Counted from the stretch's first letter, positions 46,294-63,924 are shown. The stretch: DNA of 64,000 bases from Candidatus Methanovirga australis (GCA_031272765.1 JAISTD010000123.1:323-64322); one strand, 5' to 3'. Notes: generated by a model not told the origin, from the sequence alone. Program-made: numbers and translations.

Positions 46294-48450
46294 ATGATGT
46301 TGACTAATTCTGAAATGGAGTATATTGTGGAAAAGATTGGAAGAGTTCCAAACCCACTTGAAGAAGGAATGTTAGATATAATGTTTTCAGAACACTGTTC
46401 ATATAAGAGTAGTAGACCATTTTTAAAAATGTTCCCAACTGAAGGAGAGAATGTAATAATGGGTCCTGGAGATGATGCTGGAATTGTTTCAATCACCGAT
46501 GAACTTGCACTTGCAGTTGGAATTGAAAGTCATAACCACCCATCAGCTATTGAACCTTACGGTGGTGCTGGAACAGGTATAGGAGGAATTTTAAGAGATA
46601 TTATTTCAATGGGTGCAATACCAATAGCTCTTTTAGATTCAATCCACTTTGGTTCCCTAAAAGATCAAAAGTCCAGATATATTTTTGAACATGTTGTGAA
46701 AGGTATCTCAGACTATGGAAATCGTGTTGGTGTTCCTACTGTCGGTGGTGAAGTAGTTTTTGATGACTCTTATAAAACAAATCCTCTTGTAAATGTTATG
46801 TGTGTCGGACTTCTCCCTAAAAAGAACATTGTAAAAGGAATAGCTCCAAATATAGGAGATGTTTTCCTACTAATGGGAAGTACTACTGGGCGTGACGGAA
46901 TACATGGAGTAACATTCGCATCAGTTGAATTAACAAAAAGTTCAGAAATTGATGATAGGCCAGCTGTTCAAGTAGGAGATCCTTTTACTAAAAAAAAAGT
47001 TCTTGAAGCATCTCTTGAAATCTTAGAAAAAATAGATGTTTCTGGTGTTAAAGACCTTGGTGGTGGCGGTTTAACATGTTGTATTAGCGAACTTGTAGAT
47101 AAATGTAACAATGGAGCAGAAATATGTTTAAATAAAATTCCTCTTAGGGAAGATGAAATGACTCCTTATGAAATTATGTTATCAGAATCTCAAGAAAGAA
47201 TGATTTTCGTGATTAATCCAAAGTATGTGGATGAAGTAATAGCTATTTGTAATAAACACGAAATTCCATCTGAAGTTATAGGAAAGGTTAAAGATGGAGA
47301 TAATATGGTAGTTATGAATGAAAATGAAATAATAGCTGATCTGCCATCTCATCTTTTAGCTGATCCTCCATATATAAGTCGTGAAATAAGAGAACCCAAA
47401 AATGACAATGAATATTTGGATGTTGAGGATATAGATATTGAAGAAGCTATTTTTAAAATATTGTCTGATTCCAGTGCTGGAAGTAAAAAATGGGTTTATA
47501 ATCAATACGATCATGAAGTTCAAATTAGAACTGTTGTAAATCCTGGTGATGATGGAGCTGTATTAAATATTAATGATGAAATAGCTATTTCATTAAGTTG
47601 TGATACTAATGGTGTTTATACAAAGCTATCTCCATATGATGGTGGAGCTGGTTGTGTAGCTGAGGCTATTAGAAATATTGTTTCTATGGGGGCAAAGCCT
47701 TATACTCTTGTAGATTGTTTGAACTTTGGAAATCCTGAAAACCCTGAAATTCTTTGGAGTTTTAGTAAATGTATTGAGGGAATGTCGGATATTGCAAATA
47801 GTTTTAAAGCACCAATTATAAGTGGTAATGTGAGTTTTTATAATGAAACTGAAGGTGTCAAAATTAATCCAACCCCTGTTGTAGGTGCTATTGGTGTAGG
47901 AAAAATTAAAAATATTAGAACTTTAGGTTTTAAAAATGAAGGAGATAAAATAATAGCTATTGGAACTACATACAATGAAGTTGATGGTTCAATTTATCAT
48001 AAAACATGTTTTAATTTGGAACAGGGGCATCCTCCTGAAGTAAGGATTGAAAATGAAAAAGAAGTAAATCTTGAAGTATTAAGACTATTAGATGAAGATG
48101 TTAATAATGACATAACAGCTATTCACGATTGTTCTACTGGTGGAGTAGCTATTTCTTTAATTGAAATGATGATTGCTGGAGACTTAGGCTGTGAAGTCAA
48201 AATAGCTAACCTTGTCCATGACGGCGATATCAAGTTAAATAATCTCTTTTTCTCCGAAAGTCACGGAAGGTATTTAATGACTGTTAAGAAAAATCAAGTT
48301 GAAAGCATTTTAGGAAATATTAGAGTTCATTGTAGTTGTATTGGTGAAGTTAAAGGTGATACACTTAAAATACTTGACGATAATACCTTGGTCCATCTAT
48401 CTAAATTAAAAGATATTTATAATAATGCTATTGAAAGATATATGGAATAA
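46294..48450 (+). CDS. purL: phosphoribosylformylglycinamidine synthase II
   Basis: [25 protein letters not shown] and DLGGGGL motifs. Length is 718 aa. Confidence 0.95.
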
Positions 48451-48455
48451 CTTCA

Positions 48456-48890
48456 TTAATTAAGGTCTTTGAATAATTCCCATATTTCAGGATATTTATT
48501 GCATATGGCTTCGTCCATTAACATTGAAGCTTCTTTACTAATACTAAATTCTGGGCGTGTTTTTCTCAGATACCTTAAAACTGCCGCTGATTTAGATGAC
48601 CAAAGAGTAATTCGAGGATTTTTTTCTATAACTTTTATAACATCTTTTATATTTTCATCTTCATTACTCTTAGTTTCTTCTATTATCTTATCATTATTTT
48701 CCTGATTTTCAATCTTTGAATTTTGATTATTTTTATTTAATTTTGGTGGATATTTATCTTCATTATCTTTTTTTAATTCATCATTTTTTTTTAGAATATC
48801 TTCTAATGAAACATCATTTTTTAAATCTTCTTCAGAAACAGCTGGAATTAAAGCATCCAACCCTTTTCCTAATCCTGCCTTTTTTGCCAT
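48456..48890 (-). CDS. small protein with a ParB-type N-terminal LGKGLDAL peptide, a low-complexity linker and an unknown C-terminal domain (mini-ParB candidate)
   Basis: The start MAKKAGLGKGLDALIP resembles the extreme N-terminus of chromosomal ParB/Spo0J. There is no ParB/Srx (GERR) domain. Residues 30-95 are K/N/E-rich and the C-terminus is about 50 aa. A strong SD AGGAG lies upstream. Confidence 0.7.
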   Translation of the reverse strand: MAKKAGLGKGLDALIPAVSEEDLKNDVSLEDILKKNDELKKDNEDKYPPKLNKNNQNSKIENQENNDKIIEETKSNEDENIKDVIKVIEKNPRITLWSSKSAAVLRYLRKTRPEFSISKEASMLMDEAICNKYPEIWELFKDLN

Positions 48891-49017
48891 TTGTTTTCTC
48901 CTAATTTAATTAAATTTATTAAAGTTTATTATAATGTAAGACAAAATTTTTTAAAATTTTAATATTGTTTATAGTATTTTATCTAACTTTATTAACATAT
49001 CATATTTTTATTACTTG

Positions 49018-49096
49018 TAAAATCTTTGATTTTATAAGTTAGAGAATCTTAGATTTTAGTTAAAACTTGTTTTAATTTAGAAAATTTTTAATTTTC
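49018..49096. repeat. hairpin modules of the same type as 45375-45880
   Basis: TAAAATC-TTT-GATTTTA-TAAGTT (49018-49040), GAATC-TTA-GATTT (49044-49056), and AATTTA-GAAAATT-TTT-AATTTTC (49074-49096). Confidence 0.6.
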
Positions 49097-49341
49097 TTCA
49101 ATTTTTTTATAAAATATTTTATATTTTTAATAAATTTATTAATTAATCTCTATTTTTATATTATAACAATATAAATGATATTTTTAAAAAATAAGAGTTA
49201 TCATGTAACAAATTAAAATTTAATCAAATAATATTAATTTAATGGCTAAAAAATATGCCATGACCTTGATCTAACCTTTAATATCCAATATAATGATACA
49301 ATAGTTATATTACTCTAAATAACTTATTAACTTCATGATAA

Positions 49342-50118
49342 TTAATCTTGACTTTCTAATTTTAAAAATTCTTTTGCAAGTCTCATGTATGCTTTTGATC
49401 CTCTACTTTCTCTGTCAAAAATTATACATGGTAGCCCATGGCTTGGTGCTTCAGCCAATTTAATATTTCGTGGAATAACACTATTAAAAATATGTTCTTT
49501 TCCACCAAAATAGGCTTTAAGTTCTTTATAAACTTCTCTGCCTAATATGGTTCTTGAGTCGTATAAGGTAAGAACAATTCCTTTTATTGGAGATGGGCTT
49601 TTTAATCTTTTTTCCACTAATTTAATAGTGTTTATTAAATCAGCTACACCTTCCAATGCATAATATTCAGCTTGAATAGGGATAATAACACTATCTGCTG
49701 CGATTAATGCGTTAACAGTTATCACTCCAAGTGATGGGGGAACATCTATTATTATATAATCAAAAAGGTCTTTTACATTACTCAGGAGATTTTTCAATGT
49801 GTTATGAAAATCTTTTTTATTATTTAGTTCAACTTCTATTCCACTAAGCTCTATGTTACTTGGCAAAATAAATAAATTTTTGACAAATGTTGGTTTTATG
49901 ACTTTTTCAACATTAATATCTCCACTAAGGGCTGTGTATATTGTATTTTCTAATTTTAATTTATCTATACCAAAACTTGTTGTTGTATTTGCTTGAGGAT
50001 CGAAATCCACGATTAAAACTGTTTTTCCTAAGATAGCTAACGATGTCCCAAAGTTAACAGCTGTTGTTGTTTTTCCACATCCTCCTTTTTGGTTGATAAT
50101 AGCTATTATTTCACTCAT
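49342..50118 (-). CDS. parA: ParA/Soj-family partition ATPase
   Basis: Deviant Walker A (NQKGGCGKTTTA), DFDPQAN, and a Walker B-like IIIDVPPS. Length is 258 aa. Confidence 0.92.
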   Translation of the reverse strand: MSEIIAIINQKGGCGKTTTAVNFGTSLAILGKTVLIVDFDPQANTTTSFGIDKLKLENTIYTALSGDINVEKVIKPTFVKNLFILPSNIELSGIEVELNNKKDFHNTLKNLLSNVKDLFDYIIIDVPPSLGVITVNALIAADSVIIPIQAEYYALEGVADLINTIKLVEKRLKSPSPIKGIVLTLYDSRTILGREVYKELKAYFGGKEHIFNSVIPRNIKLAEAPSHGLPCIIFDRESRGSKAYMRLAKEFLKLESQD

Positions 50119-50192: not shown

Positions 50193-50830
50193 AACTTATA
50201 AGTTATAACTTATAAATCACAACTTATAGATCAAGTTCATAGATTTAATTTATTGATATTGGTTTAGAATTACTATATTATTCTTAATTAACTTATAAGA
50301 TTAACTGGTATTAATGAGGTTTATAATAAGATTATCAATATTAATTCGAGCCTGTAAAAAGTCTGGAGTTTTTTTGATATGTTTCACTTATAAGTTATAA
50401 CCTATCATTATATAATGAATAATTTACAATGTTTAAAGTTGTAACTTTTAAGTCTAATTTTTAAGTATATTCGAAGCTGAAATACAACTTTTTAACTAAA
50501 TAAAAGATTTAAAAGCCCAAAATAGATTTATTAGATAAATCCACTATTAAAATCGGAAATATTGATTCATACTAAGACTTCTAAGTTCTAACTTTCAAAT
50601 TATTTCTTATAAGTTTTCACTTTGAACTTATAGTTAATAATTTATAACTTCTTATTTATAACTTTTTAGTTTTAAGTTACAATTAATAATTTAGCACTTA
50701 TACTATATAAGTTTTAAATTAAAAGTGAGTTATTATAACTTATAAGTTATATCTTATAATTGATATCGCATTATTTTTTTATTCGTTCCAATTTTAAATT
50801 TTTTAATATTTTAAATAAATTTATAACTTA
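50193..50830. repeat. array of CTTATAAG-type palindromic iterons (candidate centromere/operator)
   Basis: A perfect 20-bp palindrome TTATAAGTTATAACTTATAA lies at 50196-50215 and a perfect 16-bp palindrome ATAACTTATAAGTTAT at 50735-50750. Exact CTTATAAG occurs at 50195, 50292, 50387, 50606 and 50739, with near copies at 50209, 50223, 50627, 50697, 50753 and 50825. Confidence 0.75.
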
Positions 50831-50901: not shown

Positions 50902-52266
50902 ATGAAAGTTATATTAGCAGGAGCAAGTAGTGCTGTAGGGAAAACAACAATTTCCACGGGCATAATGAAAGCTTTATCCAAACATAATGTTCAACCATTT
51001 AAAGTAGGACCAGATTATATAGATCCAAGTTACCATACCCTTGCAACAGGAAATATATCCAGAAACTTAGATTCTTTTTTTATGAGTGATGACCAAATAA
51101 TTTCCACATATACAAGAGCTATGAAAAATTCCAAAGCTAAATATGGGATTATTGAGGGTGTTAGAGGATTATATGAAGGTATAAGTCCAATCACAGATGT
51201 TGGAAGCACATCATCAATAGCTAAGGCATTAAATGCTCCAATAATTCTTATTTTAGACTCTCGAAGCTTAGTTAAAAGTGCTGCTGCAATAGTTCTTGGA
51301 TTTAAATCATTAGACACTGAATTAAACATAGAAGGAGTTATATTAAATAAAGTTAAGGGGAAAAAACACTATTTAAAAACTAAAAAATCTGTAGAAACAC
51401 TTACTAACACTAAAGTACTAGGTGGAATCCCACGAAATGATAAAATTGCTATTGAACAGAGACATTTAGGATTGGTTCCAGCACTTGAGAAAGCTAAAAT
51501 AGCTGAAAGTATTGAAAATTGGGGCAAGATTGCTGAAAATTATATAGATCTCGATGGTCTAATAGATATAATGAAAGCTTTCAAAACTCCTGAATCTACA
51601 GGCAAACTTTGGAAAACTGGAAATAAAAAACCAATAAAGATAGGGTTAGCAAAAGATGAAGTATTTAACTTCTACTATCAAGATAATATTGATGCATTAA
51701 AGGAAAATAATGCAAAAATCGTTCAGTTTTCCCCGTTACACGATGATTGTCTTCCTGATGTGGATGGACTATATATTGGTGGTGGTTATCCTGAAGTTTT
51801 TAAGAAGGAATTAGAAAGAAATTCATCTATTAGAAAATCTATTTTAAAATTTCATAATAATGAAAACCATATTTATGGAGAATGTGGGGGATTAATATAT
51901 CTTTCAAAATCAATTGATAAAGGCAAAATGTGTGGCTTGATACCTTTCAACTCAACTATGACTTCTAAAGTTCAAGGACTAAGTTATAATATAATTAAAT
52001 CAAAGAAAGATAACTTGATCTCTCAAAAGGATGAAATTTTTAAAGGGCATGAGTTCCATTATACCAAGTTAAATAATGTTGATATTAATAATGCTGATGG
52101 TAATTTCAATTTTAAAATTCGAAGAGGGCGAGGGATCATTGATGGATACGATGGATTGAGTTATAAGAATACTTTAGTAAATTATACACACATTCATCCT
52201 TGTTCGTGCCCTAATTTTGCTTATAACTTCACTAAAAACATAGCAGAAAGTAGAAATTTTTTTTAG
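50902..52266 (+). CDS. a,c-diamide synthase (CbiA/CfbB family: cobyrinate or Ni-sirohydrochlorin)
   Basis: N-terminal ATP-binding [10 protein letters not shown] and [13 protein letters not shown], plus a C-terminal GATase with GECGGLIYL. Sequence alone cannot distinguish CbiA from CfbB. Confidence 0.88.
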
Positions 52267-55147: not shown

Positions 55148-57463
55148 CTAAACCAATTTTTTATTTTCGTTTTCATTCTTGAAGTAAAGATATTTTTTAC
55201 TTAGAAGATCAATAATATCCTTAGCAGTCTTTTTTCCAATACCATCAACTTCTCGTAGTTGTGTTTCTGTAGCATTTATAACATTTTGAACAGTTGCGAA
55301 CTTTTCCAACAACTTTTTTGCAGTAACAGGTCCAATATGTGGAAGTGATTCTATGATAAATAGTTGTTGTTCCCATGTATTTGCAGGCTTTTTTTCTGTT
55401 CTAATTTGTATTTCAGTTTTTTTGTCATCGATCTGTTCTCTAATAGCTATTCTTTTTATCATAGCTGCAGTGTCTTCAGGATTTCTTGTGGGAATTATTG
55501 AAATTCCAAAATCAATAGCTATTGATGCTATTGAACCTCTTATGGCATCGGGGCTTAGGAATCCAGTGTAGAAGTCATCTCCTTCAAGAATCATTATGGG
55601 TTTTTTAAATTCTTCTTTCATTAATCGTGCCTGTTTGTATAATCTTTTATCCACGATAGAATCGATGAAATCCTTAGATGTTTTTCTTTCAATTGCTACA
55701 TCATCACTAACTTGATAATCTCCAACTGACATTGTTCTAATCTGAACTTCAACAGATATAGTGTCCAATCCTCTTAAAACTTTGGAATTTGTTTCTCTTG
55801 AGTCAGCATAAACGATAACTTTATCTTTTTTAGGTAAATTTTCTTCCACACTATTGTTTAGACTTTTTCTAATATCATTGTCTTTTCTTTCAATAATTTT
55901 TGATTTAACAGGTTTTAATTCATCAAGATTTATATCTTTAAAAGCATTAATAAGTTGAGTTTTCATTCTATTTTCTTTTCTAAAACTTGACCAGTAGTAT
56001 CCTTCGTCTCTTGTTCCTTCTGTAATTAAAACTTTCATTTTACCCTGATTTTTTCTACCTGTTCGACCTCTTCTTTGTATCATTCTGATTTCAGATGGAA
56101 CTGGTTCATATAAAACTACCAAGTCTACTGAAGGAATATCAATGCCTTCTTCAGCAACACTTGTTGATATTAGAACATCATGATTTCCAACTTTAAATGA
56201 CTTGATTATTTGTTTTTGTTCTTTCTGGCTAAGACCTTTTTCTCCGTTACTTATTCCTTGTCCATAAAACTTTACAGAATTAATTCCTTCTTTTTCACAT
56301 TTGCCGTGAATCATGTTTAAAGTGTCTCTAAATTGAGTAAAAACAATGATTTTTGCTCTATCTTCACTTTGACTATTTTCATAGTTAAGTTCTTCCTTTA
56401 AGATATTAATCAATTTTTTGAGTTTTGGATGTTCCCAACCATGTTTAACAGCTTGTTTTGTAAGTCTAACAGCAGTACTAAAATCAGGATCAGCAAGTAG
56501 ACTTTTAGATGCTTTCGTAGTTTTTGTTCTTAATTTTTCGAAGTATTGGTTAACAGGATTTATTCCTTGGGTTTCTAAGAGTTCAAGAGAATGTTGAATA
56601 CTAATTACTGCAGTAATCAAAGATATTACTCTATAACATTCTTTCGGAGGAACAGATGCTCGAGCTATTCTATTCTGGATCTGCCCCCTTGCTTTCAGTA
56701 TGTCCTTTTTACCAACTGCAACTGTAGAGAGTATACCTAAATTTTTAAGCATTTTTAGTCTATGTGTTAATGCCTTGTCAAGATGTTCTTTAATTTTATT
56801 TAATTCTTTACTCATTTTAACCTTAATCCAATCAATTTCGATGGGTTTGAAATAAGGTTTAACATCTTTATCTTCTTCAGTTTTAATGGCTATATTTTCA
56901 ATGTAAAGATTTTCACATATACTTTTAATTTTTTCACTATCAGAGCCAGGAGATGCAGTTAAACCAAGAATAAGGGGAAACTTTCCTTCATTCATATAGC
57001 GAGCAGCCAAGTAAACATAGGCATAGGATCCAACGGTGTGATGACATTCATCAAAGACAACTAATGAAATATCTTTTAGTGAGTATCTTCTGTTTAAAAG
57101 GTCTGATTCAACGGTTTGTGGAGTTGCACAAATAATTCGTGATTCATTCCATCGTTTTTTTCTTTCATCTGTTTTTACAGCACCAGTAATTGAAGTAGAA
57201 GAAATATTTAAGAATGTTCTAAAACTCTCTTCGTGCTGGATTGTAAGTGGCTTACTTGGAGATAGAATAAGTATCTTTGAGCTTTTAAATTTATTTAATC
57301 TGTCTGCAGCTATTAGAACAGCAATTATTGTCTTTCCTATAGCTGTAGGAGCAACAATCATCGTATTCCCACTTTTTAAAACATCGGCAGCTAAAATTTG
57401 TTGATAAATTCTTGATTCAACAGTATTTGACATGATTAAAGGGTGTTTAATATATTCAGCCAT
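55148..57463 (-). CDS. hef: Hef: helicase-associated endonuclease for fork-structured DNA (SF2 helicase + ERCC4 nuclease + HhH2)
   Basis: APTAIGKT, VFDECHH and QRRGRTGR helicase motifs, the ERCC4 motifs (VYADSRE, GDY, ERK) and a C-terminal HhH (GIGKKTAKDI). The ATG at 57463 gives MAEYIKHPLI. Confidence 0.93.
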   Translation of the reverse strand: MAEYIKHPLIMSNTVESRIYQQILAADVLKSGNTMIVAPTAIGKTIIAVLIAADRLNKFKSSKILILSPSKPLTIQHEESFRTFLNISSTSITGAVKTDERKKRWNESRIICATPQTVESDLLNRRYSLKDISLVVFDECHHTVGSYAYVYLAARYMNEGKFPLILGLTASPGSDSEKIKSICENLYIENIAIKTEEDKDVKPYFKPIEIDWIKVKMSKELNKIKEHLDKALTHRLKMLKNLGILSTVAVGKKDILKARGQIQNRIARASVPPKECYRVISLITAVISIQHSLELLETQGINPVNQYFEKLRTKTTKASKSLLADPDFSTAVRLTKQAVKHGWEHPKLKKLINILKEELNYENSQSEDRAKIIVFTQFRDTLNMIHGKCEKEGINSVKFYGQGISNGEKGLSQKEQKQIIKSFKVGNHDVLISTSVAEEGIDIPSVDLVVLYEPVPSEIRMIQRRGRTGRKNQGKMKVLITEGTRDEGYYWSSFRKENRMKTQLINAFKDINLDELKPVKSKIIERKDNDIRKSLNNSVEENLPKKDKVIVYADSRETNSKVLRGLDTISVEVQIRTMSVGDYQVSDDVAIERKTSKDFIDSIVDKRLYKQARLMKEEFKKPIMILEGDDFYTGFLSPDAIRGSIASIAIDFGISIIPTRNPEDTAAMIKRIAIREQIDDKKTEIQIRTEKKPANTWEQQLFIIESLPHIGPVTAKKLLEKFATVQNVINATETQLREVDGIGKKTAKDIIDLLSKKYLYFKNENENKKLV

Positions 57464-57882
57464 GATTTTAACTATTTTCTGATTGTATAAGTAATATGTT
57501 ATTTTGGTAGATAAGTTACATTTAAATTTTAAGTTTATATGTTTGAACTCTAAAGTTTGTATATTAACCATAATTTTTAACCATAATTTTCAAAATATAT
57601 GGATCACTATTAATTAAGTTGTTAGTAATTAATATTTTTTAAAAAATAAAAATATTTAAAATATAATTTTCAAAATTAATGAAATATATTCTCTAATTTG
57701 TTGGAAATAAGATATTTTAAATTATAAATTACAAAAAATTCCCCTAAGTCAATATAAATATTTATCGATGCTTTTTTAAAAAAACTAATGAAGAATTATT
57801 ATATACCAATCTTTTAATTAATCATCAAAAACAGATTCAAATATCAAATCTACAATTTCTATAAATCAATGTATTTTCTCAG

Positions 57883-61085: not shown

Positions 61086-62168
61086 TTAATCATCCATAGC
61101 ATCTAATTTTTCTGGAAAATAGGTGTCAACAACATATTCAAGACCATATTTAGAAAATGCTTGCTGTTCTGCTTTTTTACCTATTTTTAACATTTTTTTA
61201 ATCTCATTTTGCCAATGCTCACTGTTGTATCTTGGATCTTTAGATAGTTCCTTCAATCTTAAAACATCAATATCTTTTAATTTGTCTGTTGGAAGTTCAT
61301 AGTTTACAATATCACTTGCTGTCACACCTAAAAATTTAGCATCAGGAGTAGCTAAATCATGATTAACATGGGCAAGTTTTGCACTGCCTGAAATAATAAC
61401 CATCGCTATATGAAAGCCCCATGGGTCTCCATCGTTACAAATATAAACTGGTAAATTCAACTCTTGATTCACTCTTTTTAAAAATCTTCTTGTAGCTCGT
61501 GCAGCCTGTCCTTTGAGACCCACAATTAATGTATCAAACTTTTTATATGCTTGTTCTTGAACCATTCTATGGAACATCCCCATGGTTTCAACAGCTATCA
61601 CCCTTCTAACATTATGATCAACAAATTCTACTTCATCAATTGTTGGTGATATTGTATAACCCGACTTTCCTGATTTCAATCCATTAATTTCAACATCCCC
61701 TTCTTTGAACACAATATCTCCATAAACTGATGCTCCATCTTCTTCAGGCATTAAACCTAAGTCTTCACGAGAGGAAGCAATACAAACTTCCAAATCCTCT
61801 GCAAGAATGTTAGATTCTTGCTGGTTTGCAAAAGGCATTCCCCAACCTTCACTAACATAATACATTTCCCTTAATGTAGCTGTTTTTTCAGTGTTTACAA
61901 GACTTTTACAGAAGTTAGAAACAAACATCATCTGTCCAATCTTTCGAATCTGCTTAACATTGCCAAGAGATCTTTTACCATACCTATCCCCTAAAATAAA
62001 ATATCTTTTATCCTTATCATAAACAATATTTGATGTTCCTCGTGATGGTACTTTAATAGATGGAATTTTTTGTTTATGAACATCATCAATGATTGTTTGA
62101 CCAAGACCTTTAAGTTTATTCATTGTAATTGTTTTTCTTTCACTTATATTCTTTTTAACTTCATTCAT
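61086..62168 (-). CDS. top6A: DNA topoisomerase VI subunit A (Spo11 homologue)
   Basis: REMYY catalytic-Tyr region and Toprim [11 protein letters not shown]. The ATG at 62168 follows an SD AGGTG. Confidence 0.95.
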
Positions 62169-62187
62169 ATTATGCACCTAACTTTCT

Positions 62188-63924
62188 CTACTCATCAAAA
62201 TATTGATCAAGGCTATCTGTATTTTCACTATTTTCAAGTTCCTCATCTAAATCAATATTTTCTCTGTCTTCTAAATCATCAACATTATCTGTATTATTTT
62301 TTTTAATATCTTCATCTCGAGCATCTTTATCATCTAATGGAGAAATTTCTTCGATTTTATCAGGATCTTCACCAAAAAGTTCAGCTAAAGCTCTATGAGT
62401 GACTTTTGATAACATATCTTTGTATTCTGGCACATCAGTTTCAGCTAAAATAGCTGCTTCTCTTAATATTACAGGCACATATTCTTCAAAAATTTTAGAT
62501 CTCATTTCTTTTTCTTGAGCTGCTTTTTTAGCCCTTATATATTTCTGTAATCTACGTGCAACAATCATTGATGCTTGTCTTACTTCATAAACGATTTCTG
62601 GTTCTGGTGCAACACTTTGTTTACCTGTAGATAAATATGGAACTTGAGTGGATATTATGTTAACAAACATAGTAAATGGAATATTTTCTAAGTCCTTAAG
62701 ACCATATCTTTTCCAATCCACAGTTTTAAGGGCTTCTGTGATAGCACAACTACCTTGGTCAAATGTTAAAGGAACTCTGTTTGCAAATCTCATTATTTCA
62801 GATTTTCTTTGTTCATTAACTATTCTTCCAGAGTTTCCACCATAAGCTAAACCCACTTCAATAATGAAAGCAACCCCACCTCTATATGAAACAGGTTTTC
62901 TTGTTGTGGCTTGAATAAATTCAGGTTTTAAAATTTCCTTCATTCCTTCTTCTATTTGTTCATTCCCAATAGGAATAAGTCCTGATGTAGGAGGAGCCAT
63001 AAAATTCATTTTACCTATAGCATGAACAATTTTTTCAGCTTCTTCCCATTTCATACTCTTAGGACGCTTGTTTAAATCCACATGTGTAATTTCTTCTATT
63101 TCCCTTAATTTTTTTTCAGACATTCTTGAAAGTGAACTTGCAAGTAAGCTTCTAAATCTTCTTTTATCAGTATGTTTTGCCATGAAAATTAAATCATCTG
63201 CAGTAACACCTTTGGGATGAGGTAAAACTTCTTTTGGTAAAATAGGAACAATATTTGCTGCTCTTTTGAAAATGAATTTTTCTCCTTCAGGGTCTCTAAA
63301 GATGATTTGCGCATGAGGATTTCCTACCATAGTTCTTCGAATATATTCAAATGCACCTTGTTCTGCTTTAGAATATGAGACTTCTTTAAATTGAAGTTCA
63401 ATAGAAACACCAGTAGAAGTTGGGATGAACTCTTCTTTTTCCATTAAAAGACCTTTATTTTTTTTAACATCCATCTTAAAAGTCATTTTGACTCCTTTCA
63501 TTTCCCCATTTTCAATGCATGCAGAAGAAACTTTCGCTGGTTTACCAGTAGTCATCTGAGATAATAAAACACAGCCACTACAACCTAAACCTTGTTGACC
63601 TCTGGATTGTATGTTCCTAAATTTTGAACCAGCGAACATTGAACAGTAAACTTGCATAATAAACTTTTCAGGGATTCCTGGCCCATTATCTGTATGTTTA
63701 AGTAAATAATGATCTTTTCCTAATTTTTGAAGATCTATCTTGATTTCAGGCAATATTCCTGCTTCTTCAGCAGCATCAAAACTATTGGTTATTAATTCAT
63801 GGAAAACCATTGTTAATGACCTAATTTTACCTGAAAAACCTAACATTTGCTTATTTTTTCTAAAAAATTCTGACGGTGATAACTGTTGGAACTCATTAAA
63901 AAGTTCTGATGCTTGTAATGACAA
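62188..63924 (-). CDS. top6B: DNA topoisomerase VI subunit B (GHKL ATPase)
   Basis: Bergerat fold motifs [15 protein letters not shown] and GQQGLG. The TTG start is 5 nt after an SD GGAGG. The C-terminal tail is acidic. Confidence 0.95.

What the first reader, a model, noticed from the sequence alone, without database searches (positions are those of the whole stretch)
48456..48890. Mini-ParB: a 144-aa protein that keeps only the ParA-stimulating N-terminal peptide of ParB
The first 16 residues, MAKKAGLGKGLDALIP, closely resemble the extreme N-terminus of bacterial chromosomal ParB/Spo0J (..KGLGKGI/LxAL..). That peptide is known to contact ParA/Soj and stimulate its ATPase. The ParB/Srx CTPase-HTH core is absent. 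A K/N/E-rich low-complexity linker follows instead, and then an unrelated C-terminal domain of about 50 aa (ITLWSSKSAAVLRYLRKTRPEFSISKEASMLMDEAICNKYPEIW) that could be the DNA-binding part.

The gene lies 450 bp downstream of a bona fide parA on the same strand, separated by a spacer full of hairpin modules. This looks like a chimeric archaeal adaptor for a ParA motor. It is comparable in logic to SegB or AspA/ParB of Sulfolobus systems but has a different architecture.
Basis: partly seen in the sequence, partly recalled or inferred. Interest (0 to 1): 0.8.

Follow-up and report, generated by a model that had tools for sequence, protein, structure and literature searches.

The report
Archaeal SegB carrying a ParB-type peptide
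This small gene encodes a euryarchaeal member of the known SegB family of archaeal centromere-binding proteins. Its first 16 residues carry the same short ParA-binding motif that bacterial ParB uses, and its neighbouring ATPase is of the bacterial Soj type, a link the SegB papers I could search do not mention.

Summary
The ORF (48456-48890, minus strand, 144 aa) is real, and its N-terminus MAKKAGLGKGLDALIP does resemble the ParA-binding motif of bacterial ParB/Spo0J. A profile built only from archaeal homologues' N-termini finds Caulobacter ParB and Thermus Spo0J, at their extreme N-termini, as the two best hits in the whole PDB.

It is the ribbon-helix-helix DNA-binding domain of SegB (PDB 7DUV/7DV2, E=3e-11; profile 1e-12; Foldseek top hit). 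The protein is therefore a SegB-family member, not a new architecture.

What looks new is the combination. The partner ATPase is Soj-like (44-45% identical to bacterial Soj, 32% to Sulfolobus SegA). The full ParB-type peptide is conserved across euryarchaeal SegB homologues (Methanobacteriales, Thermococcus, Archaeoglobaceae). Sulfolobales SegB starts MSELDFLLKKK instead.

A ParA gene lies directly upstream in 85 of 87 related loci; the other two are cut at a contig end. A conserved palindromic element, A[CG]TTATAA[CG]T, clusters upstream of parA in 66 of 70 loci and is the likely centromere or operator.

Function is inferred, not shown. Verdict: a new variant of a known kind, of moderate interest.

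The parts
48456..48890 (-). segB-like gene (144 aa plus stop): euryarchaeal SegB-family centromere-binding protein
   Evidence: ORF. SegB hits in PDB: 7duv E=3.3e-11, 7dv2 E=1.1e-8. 1815 homologues at E<=1e-3.
48843..48890 (-). Residues 1-16, MAKKAGLGKGLDALIP: ParB/Spo0J-type ParA-binding motif (hydrophobics L7, L11, L14, I15; central K9)
   Evidence: N-terminal profile A2 ranks ParB 6T1F and Spo0J 1VZ0 first in PDB. Aligns position for position with the H. pylori ParB peptide MAKNKVLGRG, whose K3/V6/L7/R9 contact HpParA (PMC11229316). L-G-[KR]-G is invariant in 135 unique motif segments. AF2 models residues 8-14 as a short helix at low confidence.
48663..48842 (-). Residues 17-76: K/N/E/D-rich, length-variable, disordered linker
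   Evidence: Composition K11 N11 E9 D7 of 60 residues. pLDDT <50 for residues 40-72. Homologues range from 119 to 250 aa because of this region.
48459..48662 (-). Residues 77-144: SegB ribbon-helix-helix DNA-binding domain (signature KNPRITLWS; R93 is equivalent to the DNA-reading K52 of Sso SegB)
   Evidence: profile vs 7dv2, E=1e-12; Foldseek top hits 7dv2_A/C, probability 0.97-0.98, TM 0.50-0.55. Domain model topology is a1 - extended segment - a2 - a3 - a4, as described for Sso SegB (PMC8682754). K52 to R correspondence and PMC8682754.
48897..48902 (-). Ribosome-binding site AGGAGA, 6 nt upstream of the ATG
   Evidence: Read directly. The ~70 nt proximal to the start codon are conserved with the closest relative L005.
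48891..49341 (.). 451-nt AT-rich spacer between parA and segB; an expansion, not a conserved element
   Evidence: Spacers in relatives run from -11 to 423 nt. Only the segB-proximal ~70 nt align with L005. RNA fold z=-0.42. No Rfam match.
49342..50118 (-). Soj-type ParA ATPase (258 aa, deviant Walker A KGGCGKT)
   Evidence: Pfam AAA_31 9.4e-64. PDB: ParA 8RAY 2e-66, H. pylori Soj 6e-60, T. thermophilus Soj 1.5e-53, but Sso SegA only 4e-19. 44-45% identity over the full length to bacterial Soj vs 32% over 167 aa to Sso SegA.
50193..50829 (.). Cluster of palindromic / heptad repeats (AACTTATAAGTT; tandem 7-bp ASTTATA units), the candidate SegB-binding centromere or operator. Exact 10-mers A[CG]TTATAA[CG]T at 50194, 50201, 50386 and 50738.
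   Evidence: 12 of the window's 24 matches (<=2 mismatches) fall in this 637-bp stretch. All 4 exact 10-mers lie here, with none in the other 63 kb. The same 10-mer occurs within 600 nt upstream of parA in 66 of 70 non-redundant related loci, at 4.69/kb vs 0.035/kb elsewhere; shuffles give 0.97 in total vs 193 observed.

Best explanation
The gene encodes the centromere-binding partner (SegB family) of a chromosomal ParA-type DNA-segregation system in a termite-gut Methanobacteriaceae archaeon. The closest genome match is Candidatus Methanovirga.

Inferred mechanism:
1. [quoted passage not shown] This forms a partition complex and probably also autoregulates the operon.
2. Each subunit carries the ParB-type amphipathic motif L7-G-K9-G-L11-D-A-L14-I15-P, tethered by a disordered linker of about 60 residues.
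3. [quoted passage not shown] That would drive segregation of the bound DNA.

Shown here: homology of both modules, the Soj-like nature of the ATPase, strict synteny, conservation of the motif, and conservation of the upstream repeats.

Inferred only: DNA binding to those repeats, ATPase stimulation through that pocket, and a role in chromosome segregation.
For: - The C-terminal domain is SegB: phmmer 7duv E=3.3e-11, profile E=1e-12, Foldseek top hits 7dv2 with probability 0.97-0.98.
- Nine of the eleven positions of the published SegB signature are met (KNPRITLWS; PMC12139799). R93 aligns with the DNA-reading K52 of Sso SegB, which Yen et al. report to be Arg in euryarchaea.
- The N-terminal motif is of the ParB type. 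It is conserved in 120 of 120 close homologues and in 74 of 110 (94 of 110 with a relaxed pattern) divergent euryarchaeal homologues, including Thermococcus, Archaeoglobaceae, Methanothermobacter and Methanosphaera.
- The partner ATPase is Soj-like.
- ParA is directly upstream on the same strand in 85 of 87 loci.
- The upstream 10-mer element is enriched about 130-fold in 66 of 70 loci.
- Experimental precedent: the Sso SegB N-terminus (residues 1-21) is required to stimulate SegA ATPase (PMC8682754). A ParB N-terminal peptide alone is sufficient to stimulate ParA (PMC12462528).
- One contrasting case: a plasmid SegB-domain protein next to an AAA_22 ATPase instead of a ParA lacks the peptide.
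Against: - There is no experimental data for any euryarchaeal SegAB.
- The N-terminal match is short (about 11 residues) and its PDB E-values are only about 0.01.
- Homology and convergence cannot be told apart for so short a motif.
- In the S. acidocaldarius SegB crystal structure the N-terminus forms a beta-strand packed on the RHH sheet (PMC12139799), so the tail may have a structural or autoinhibitory state as well.
- A Methanothermobacter/Methanobacterium clade has lost the central K/R (GLG[ML]GLDALI) yet keeps ParA. This shows the basic residue is dispensable there, or the mechanism differs.
- The 451-nt spacer uncouples the two genes in this genome.
- The full-length AF2 model gave no PDB match, and the monomer models do not show the RHH strand.
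Confidence: 0.75

Rival explanations
1. The N-terminal resemblance to ParB is convergent or coincidental: a short G/K/L-rich amphipathic tail of the sort that many ParA/MinD activators carry. The protein would be an ordinary SegB whose tail works as in Sulfolobus, possibly through a different site on the ATPase.
For: - The motif is only about 11 residues long, and the PDB E-values are 0.007-0.011, with lumazine synthase false positives at 0.07-0.1.
- Sulfolobales SegB shares only the LDxL[IL] core.
- Positively charged N-terminal tails recur in the unrelated activators ParG and omega (PMC8682754, PMC12462528).
Against: - The two best PDB hits are both ParB proteins, matched at their N-termini.
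- Every key position of the bacterial motif (four hydrophobics plus the central K/R) is present and invariant.
- The motif co-occurs with Soj-type ATPases that are as close to bacterial Soj as bacterial Sojs are to each other.
- The divergent Sulfolobus SegA goes with a divergent tail.
Confidence: 0.15
2. The protein is mainly a ribbon-helix-helix transcriptional repressor of the parA promoter. The upstream repeats would be an operator, and there would be no centromere function.
For: - RHH proteins are common repressors.
- The repeats lie in the parA promoter region.
- Type Ib RHH partition proteins also autoregulate (established knowledge of ParG and omega).
Against: - Repression alone does not explain a conserved ParA-binding-type N-terminal motif on a flexible tether.
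- Sulfolobus SegB is required for normal nucleoid segregation (PMC12139799, PMC12284271).
- Repression and centromere binding are not mutually exclusive.
Confidence: 0.07
3. The cassette is a plasmid- or mobile-element-derived partition module that has integrated into the chromosome, rather than a chromosomal segregation system.
For: - A SegB-domain gene occurs on the Methanohalobium plasmid pMETEV01.
- The locus sits in different neighbourhoods in different genera.
Against: - Flanking genes are housekeeping (purL, a cobyrinic-acid diamide synthase-like gene, ATCase, Hef, topoisomerase VI).
- Synteny is conserved with close relatives.
- GC content is not deviant.
- Of 244 pattern matches in the one-genome-per-species collection, 235 were confirmed as relatives; the 80 best were kept, and 78 of those titles name Methanobacteriaceae.
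- No match in the phage/virus collection.
Confidence: 0.03

Closest known systems
SegAB chromosome-segregation system of Sulfolobales (SegB, PDB 7DUV/7DV2; SegA, 7DUT)
   Same: - Homologous C-terminal RHH domain (33% identity, E=3e-11).
- Same three-part layout: short conserved N-terminal tail, variable low-complexity linker, C-terminal DNA-binding domain.
- The gene lies downstream of a ParA-family ATPase.
- Palindromic repeats lie upstream of the ATPase gene.
   Different: - The tail is GLG[KR]GLDALIP (ParB type), not MSELDFLLKKKRK.
- The ATPase is a 258-aa Soj type (44-45% identical to bacterial Soj) rather than the divergent 220-aa SegA (32%).
- The candidate site is ASTTATA/ACTTATAAGT, not TCTAGA-S-TCTAGA, which is not enriched here.
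- The two genes are separated by 451 nt instead of overlapping.
- The host is rod-shaped or filamentous Methanobacteriaceae, not a coccoid crenarchaeon.
Bacterial chromosomal ParABS (Soj/Spo0J)
   Same: - Soj-type ATPase.
- N-terminal ParA-binding motif with four hydrophobic residues and a central K/R, at the very N-terminus and on a flexible tether (PMC12462528, PMC11229316).
   Different: - No ParB/Srx CTPase domain, no HTH, and no C-terminal dimerisation domain.
- DNA binding is through an RHH, so no CTP-gated sliding clamp. Juxtaposition of the two peptides would depend only on RHH dimerisation.
Type Ib plasmid partition proteins ParG (TP228) and omega (pSM19035)
   Same: - Small RHH dimer with a flexible N-terminal tail that activates a small Walker-type ParA.
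- Binding to short repeats in the promoter region. Omega binds 7-bp heptads (from my own knowledge of the omega literature), which recalls the ASTTATA heptads here.
   Different: - No detectable sequence similarity to ParG or omega (no Pfam hit at E<=10).
- The tail motif is of the chromosomal ParB type.
- The locus is chromosomal and archaeal.
pNOB8 AspA-ParB-ParA (Sulfolobus plasmid)
   Same: An archaeal ParA system that mixes bacterial-like and archaeal parts.
   Different: - pNOB8 has three components, with a real ParB N-domain and a separate DNA-binding adaptor, AspA.
- Here a single polypeptide joins only the ParB peptide to the DNA-binding domain.

Membership tests
SegB (archaeal centromere-binding protein) | Sequence homology to the Sso SegB RHH DNA-binding domain | tested here: met
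   phmmer 7duv E=3.3e-11. Profile A4 vs 7dv2 E=1e-12. Foldseek top hits 7dv2_A/C, probability 0.97-0.98, TM 0.50-0.55.
SegB (archaeal centromere-binding protein) | C-terminal signature K/R-D/N-P-K/R-I-G/T-V/L-W-S-Y/P-P/E (Charles-Orszag et al. 2025) | tested here: met
   The window has K-N-P-R-I-T-L-W-S-S-K. The first 9 of 11 positions fit; the last two (S-K) deviate, as they do throughout Methanobacteriaceae.
SegB (archaeal centromere-binding protein) | Gene located immediately downstream of a ParA-family ATPase gene | tested here: met
   Window: same strand, 451-nt gap. 85 of 87 related loci; the 2 exceptions are truncated contigs. Also T. litoralis, Methanothermobacter and Sso.
SegB (archaeal centromere-binding protein) | Conserved N-terminal tail of the Sulfolobales type (MSELD[FL][LI][LF] followed by basic residues) that stimulates SegA | tested here: not met
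   The window tail is MAKKAGLGKGLDALIP. Only the LDxL[IL] core is shared. ATPase stimulation is not testable with these tools.
SegB (archaeal centromere-binding protein) | Site-specific binding to palindromic sites upstream of the ATPase gene | not testable with these tools
   A conserved palindromic/heptad element upstream of parA was found computationally. The Sulfolobus consensus TCTAGASTCTAGA is absent.
SegB (archaeal centromere-binding protein) | Dimeric ribbon-helix-helix fold | tested here: inconclusive
   Only monomer models were possible. Their topology (a1 - extended segment - a2 - a3 - a4) agrees with Sso SegB, but no strand is formed in the monomer.
ParB/Spo0J | ParB/Srx CTPase domain (PF02195, GxxRxxA) and HTH parS-binding domain | tested here: not met
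   No Pfam or NCBIfam hit to any ParB model at E<=10. The protein has only 144 aa.
ParB/Spo0J | N-terminal ParA-binding motif (aliphatic residues plus a central K/R) at the extreme N-terminus | tested here: met
   Profile A2 ranks ParB 6T1F and Spo0J 1VZ0 first in PDB. Aligns with HpParB MAKNKVLGRG. Motif description from PMC12462528.
Soj-type chromosomal ParA (for the partner ATPase) | Full-length homology to bacterial Soj with a deviant Walker A motif; no N-terminal HTH extension | tested here: met
   8RAY 2e-66, 6IUB 6e-60, 1WCV 1.5e-53, all aligned end to end. 44-45% identity. KGGCGKT is read from the sequence.
ParG / omega (type Ib RHH partition proteins) | Sequence membership in the ParG or Omega_Repress families | tested here: not met
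   No Pfam hit at E<=10. The resemblance is architectural only.

The most novel reading that the evidence does not exclude
The ParA-activating peptide of bacterial ParB is a portable module that also heads the archaeal RHH protein SegB throughout the Euryarchaeota, where it is paired with Soj-type ATPases. On this reading, euryarchaeal SegAB is a true hybrid: a bacterial-type motor and activation peptide joined to an archaeal DNA-binding domain. The well-studied Sulfolobus SegAB, with its divergent SegA and truncated MSELDFLL tail, would be a derived offshoot rather than the ancestor. That contradicts the published proposal that euryarchaea acquired SegB from Sulfolobaceae. It also predicts cross-domain interchangeability of ParB and SegB peptides on Soj-type ATPases.
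Probability: 0.4. Interest if true: 0.7.

Novelty: new variant of a known kind. Interest (0 to 1): 0.5.

Why it matters
All SegAB work so far has been done in Sulfolobales. The papers I could search describe SegB as unrelated to ParB and the euryarchaeal N-termini as lineage-specific and of unknown function.

If euryarchaeal SegB carries the ParB-type ParA-binding motif and partners with a Soj-type ATPase, three things follow:
- There is a specific, testable mechanism for chromosome segregation in methanogens, Thermococcus and Archaeoglobi: the same pocket and the same peptide as in bacteria.
- The activation peptide can work from a simple RHH dimer without a CTP-gated clamp, which bears on what the ParB clamp contributes.
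- The evolutionary history of SegAB may need revising.

The analysis also yields a candidate archaeal centromere motif (ASTTATA heptads / ACTTATAAGT) for Methanobacteriaceae, including the gut genus Methanobrevibacter.

Tried and rejected
- Pfam and NCBIfam scans of the 144-aa protein found no family. Only the PDB sequence search revealed SegB.
- Foldseek with the full-length AF2 model (mean pLDDT 68) gave only noise. The domain-only model was needed.
- tblastn of the 22-aa peptide against plasmids found nothing, because the query is too short.
- The phage/virus collection had no relative.
- The first family-wide alignment was too divergent for the genome scan (not counted). The scan that worked was saturated by Methanobacteriaceae, so it did not give taxonomic breadth. 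Breadth came from the third homologue search instead.
- The listing of cluster members gave little taxonomy.
- The founding 2012 PNAS SegAB paper is not held, so I could not check whether its alignment figure comments on the N-terminus.
- Rejected: a structured RNA or hairpin modules in the parA-segB spacer (z=-0.42; no Rfam match).
- Rejected: the Sulfolobus SegB site TCTAGASTCTAGA as the local centromere (8 matches vs 14 expected, none near the locus).
- Rejected: ParB family membership (no Srx or HTH domain).
- Looked for an Orc1/Cdc6 gene near the locus, as a sign of origin proximity. None was found between 36 and 64 kb, and GC skew shows no switch.

Full report
**1. Observation**

The ORF at 48456-48890 on the minus strand encodes 144 aa beginning MAKKAGLGKGLDALIP. 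An AGGAGA ribosome-binding site lies 6 nt upstream of the ATG. A 258-aa ParA-family ORF (49342-50118, minus strand; Pfam AAA_31 9.4e-64) lies upstream on the same strand, 451 nt away. The flanking genes are purL (46294-48450, convergent) and a cobyrinic-acid a,c-diamide synthase-like gene (50902-52266, divergent). Further housekeeping genes follow: ATCase, a Hef-like helicase-nuclease and topoisomerase VI. The locus is therefore chromosomal. Neither Pfam nor NCBIfam recognises the 144-aa protein, and no ParB/Srx or HTH model matches even at E<=10.

**2. The C-terminal domain is SegB**

A sequence search of the PDB matched residues 50-139 to Sulfolobus solfataricus SegB (7DUV E=3.3e-11; 7DV2 E=1.1e-8). 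A profile of 15 diverse homologues' C-terminal domains gave E=1e-12.

An AlphaFold2 model of the domain alone (mean pLDDT 77.5) has the order a1, extended segment (NPRITLWS), a2, a3, a4. That is the topology Yen et al. 2021 report for Sso SegB (PMC8682754). Its two best Foldseek hits in the PDB are the SegB-DNA complex chains 7DV2_A and 7DV2_C (probability 0.98 and 0.97, TM 0.50-0.55). All other hits have probability <=0.08.

The published SegB signature (K/R-D/N-P-K/R-I-G/T-V/L-W-S-..., PMC12139799) is met as KNPRITLWS. R93 aligns with Sso K52, the DNA-reading residue that Yen et al. say is replaced by Arg in euryarchaea. This is a SegB-family protein with the standard layout of tail, variable linker and RHH.

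**3. The N-terminal peptide really is of the ParB type**

All 120 listed close homologues keep G-L-G-[KR]-G-L-x-[SA]-L-I-P within the first ~16 residues, while the adjacent linker varies in length and sequence (119-250 aa in total). Over 135 unique motif segments from the whole family, L, G and G are 100% conserved. The central residue is K in 59% and R in 40%. The following positions are L (92%), D (75%), A/S, L (89%), I (85%) and P (60%).

A 22-column profile made only from archaeal N-termini (A2) was searched against all 177,635 distinct PDB sequences. The top two hits are Caulobacter ParB (6T1F, residues 3-20, E=0.007) and T. thermophilus Spo0J (1VZ0, residues 6-18, E=0.011). H. pylori ParB (residues 1-18) also appears, at E=0.92. 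All three matches are at the extreme N-terminus. The only other hits are internal segments of lumazine synthase at E about 0.1.

The window peptide MAKKAGLGKG aligns position for position with the H. pylori ParB peptide MAKNKVLGRG, which was crystallised on HpParA. There K3, V6, L7 and R9 make the contacts, and L7 and R9 are conserved among ParBs (PMC11229316).

Work on M. xanthus ParAB defines the motif as four hydrophobic residues plus a central R/K, with Lys in about half of chromosomal ParBs. [quoted passage not shown] The window protein has L7, L11, L14, I15 and K9. The full-length AF2 model gives a low-confidence helix at residues 8-14 and a disordered linker (pLDDT <50 for residues 40-72).

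**4. The partner ATPase is of the Soj type, not the SegA type**

Against the PDB, the window ParA scores as follows:

| PDB entry | Protein | E-value |
|---|---|---|
| 8RAY | ParA family protein | 2e-66 |
| 6IUB | H. pylori Soj | 6e-60 |
| 1WCV | T. thermophilus Soj | 1.5e-53 |
| 7DUT | Sso SegA | 4e-19 (72 bits, residues 4-174) |

The Soj alignments run end to end. In pairwise BLASTP, the ATPases next to SegB genes in this window, Methanothermobacter and T. litoralis are 41-51% identical over their full length to bacterial Soj/ParA. That is the same range as the bacterial proteins among themselves (39-51%). Sso SegA is 31-35% identical over only 72-173 aa to everything else.

**5. Co-occurrence**

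Across 87 fetched Methanobacteriaceae loci (Methanobrevibacter, Ca. Methanovirga, Methanorudis, Methanoflexus, Methanobinarius and others), a ParA gene 59-95% identical to the window's lies directly upstream on the same strand in 85. In the other two, the contig ends 30 or 130 nt before the segB ORF. Gaps run from -11 to 423 nt, so the window's 451 nt is at the long end of a variable spacer. Only the ~70 nt next to the segB start align with the closest relative. The spacer folds no better than shuffles (z=-0.42) and matches no Rfam family.

**6. Distribution of the peptide within the SegB family**

A profile of the C-terminal domain alone finds 242 clusters (at 50% identity) in 1.84 billion representatives. 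Many divergent members start with the same motif. Named examples from the third homologue search:

| Lineage | N-terminus |
|---|---|
| Thermococcus litoralis / aggregans / argininiproducens | MKKKKALGRGLEAIIS |
| Archaeoglobaceae | MKRLGKGLDAIL |
| Archaeoglobus veneficus | MLSGKKLGKGLDALIS |
| Methanothermobacter | SLGRGLDALIKAK |
| Methanosphaera | NALGRGLDALIKK |

In that search, 74 of 110 sequences match strictly and 94 of 110 match with a relaxed pattern. Many of the rest are fragments.

In contrast, 40 of 43 Sulfolobaceae SegB proteins, including Sso SegB itself (P0290), start M-S-E-L-D-[FL]-[LI]-[LFI] followed by basic residues. They share only the LDxL[IL] core and lack L-G-[KR]-G. 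The full ParB-type tail therefore goes with Soj-type ATPases, and the truncated tail goes with the divergent SegA.

One further case fits this pattern. On the Methanohalobium plasmid pMETEV01, a SegB-domain protein lies downstream of an AAA_22 ATPase instead of a ParA, and it has no such peptide.

**7. Candidate centromere or operator**

The 783-bp region upstream of parA contains the palindrome AACTTATAAGTT and tandem 7-bp ASTTATA units. Twelve of the window's 24 matches at <=2 mismatches fall within 50193-50829. The 10-mer A[CG]TTATAA[CG]T occurs four times there and nowhere else in the window.

The same 10-mer lies within 600 nt upstream of parA in 66 of 70 non-redundant related loci. Its density is 4.69/kb there against 0.035/kb in the rest of those loci. 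Shuffled upstream regions give 0.97 hits in total against 193 observed. The Sulfolobus SegB site TCTAGASTCTAGA is not enriched (8 matches against 14 expected) and is absent from the locus. This agrees with the remark in PMC12284271 that euryarchaeal sites probably differ.

**8. Comparison with the literature**

SegAB has been known since 2012. Euryarchaeal homologues, always next to a ParA gene, are shown in reviews (PMC5120986). A 2025 preprint explicitly lists Methanobacteriales and Thermococcus homologues (PMC12139799). Membership of the family is therefore not new.

The same sources describe SegB in these ways:
- 'evolutionarily unrelated to ParB' (PMC12284271)

In five full-text searches and nine look-ups in seven papers, I found no statement that the euryarchaeal SegB tail carries the ParB ParA-binding motif or that its ATPase is Soj-like. 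The 2012 PNAS paper is not held, so an earlier remark there cannot be excluded.

**9. Mechanism, with status**

Shown:
- Homology of the two modules.
- The Soj-like nature of the partner ATPase.
- Strict synteny.
- Conservation of the motif and of the repeats.

Inferred:
- RHH dimers bind the ASTTATA/ACTTATAAGT array upstream of parA.
- The two tethered ParB-type peptides dock at the two dimer-edge pockets of DNA-bound ParA-ATP and trigger hydrolysis and release, as for bacterial ParB but without a CTP-gated clamp.
- The array may also act as an operator.

Caveats:
- In S. acidocaldarius SegB the tail forms a beta-strand on the RHH sheet (PMC12139799).
- A Methanothermobacter/Methanobacterium clade has M or L in place of the central K/R.

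**10. Verdict**

It is not a new chimeric family. The new element is that the euryarchaeal branch of SegAB combines a ParB-type activation peptide and a Soj-type motor with the SegB RHH, and uses a different candidate centromere. I rate it a new variant of a known kind, interest 0.5.

Noticed in passing
L089:1-2836 (Archaeoglobaceae contig JAVQRY010000015.1): The gene order is ParA (partial) - SegB-like (111 aa) - Orc1/Cdc6 (AAA_22 + Cdc6_lid) - second SegB-like (111 aa). Two SegB genes flank the replication-initiator gene, which suggests the system sits at an origin in this lineage.
   Followed up: no
L092:1194-2719 (Methanohalobium evestigatum plasmid pMETEV01, NC_014254.1 161943-163468): A 178-aa SegB-domain protein without the ParB-type peptide lies directly downstream of a 328-aa AAA_22 ATPase instead of a ParA. 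It may be a different SegB-based module on a 164-kb archaeal plasmid.
   Followed up: partly
Proteins P0176, P0177, P0198, P0205, P0208, P0209, P0212, P0213, P0218, P0219: A subfamily of about 155-215-aa proteins has two SegB-like domains in tandem and no N-terminal ParB-type peptide. Their gene context and taxonomy are unknown.
   Followed up: no
L078, L079, L090 and proteins P0406-P0425, P0433-P0434: A Methanothermobacter/Methanobacterium clade has GLG[ML]GLDALI, so the central K/R of the motif is replaced by Met or Leu. The ParA gene is still directly upstream. This is a natural variant relevant to the debate over whether that residue acts as an arginine finger.
   Followed up: partly
Proteins P0002, P0020, P0043, P0338, P0340; P0297, P0386: Public annotations call these 100-240-aa SegB homologues 'AAA family ATPase' or 'ATPase AAA' (NCBI), or 'histone H3/H4' (JGI). 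Both names look wrong. The C-terminal profile does give weak histone H2B hits in the PDB (E 0.008-0.1), which may explain the second name.
   Followed up: no
L013 (CAVDAS010000003.1) and L070 (JAFRZY010000007.1): Contigs titled 'Bacteroidaceae bacterium' and 'Bacilli bacterium' carry Methanobrevibacter-type parA-segB loci. This is probably binning contamination in those MAGs.
   Followed up: no
window 48891-49341: The parA-segB spacer is 451 nt here, against 138 nt in the closest relative (as measured) and overlapping genes in many Methanobrevibacter. Long spacers (210-423 nt) recur sporadically in termite-gut lineages (L008, L012, L019, L037). Only the segB-proximal ~70 nt are conserved, which suggests segB has its own promoter in this clade.
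   Followed up: partly
window 55148-57571 (-) and L004:4874-7231: A Hef-like helicase/ERCC4 nuclease gene lies near the parA-segB locus both in this window and in M. cuticularis, where it is immediately downstream. This may be a conserved neighbourhood of DNA-maintenance genes. Topoisomerase VI A/B is at 61086-63924.
   Followed up: no
window 49029-49068: One degenerate copy of the upstream repeat (ATTTTATAAGTT) and a TTAGAGAATCTTAGA quasi-palindrome lie inside the parA-segB spacer. They could be an extra weak binding site or could be chance.
   Followed up: no
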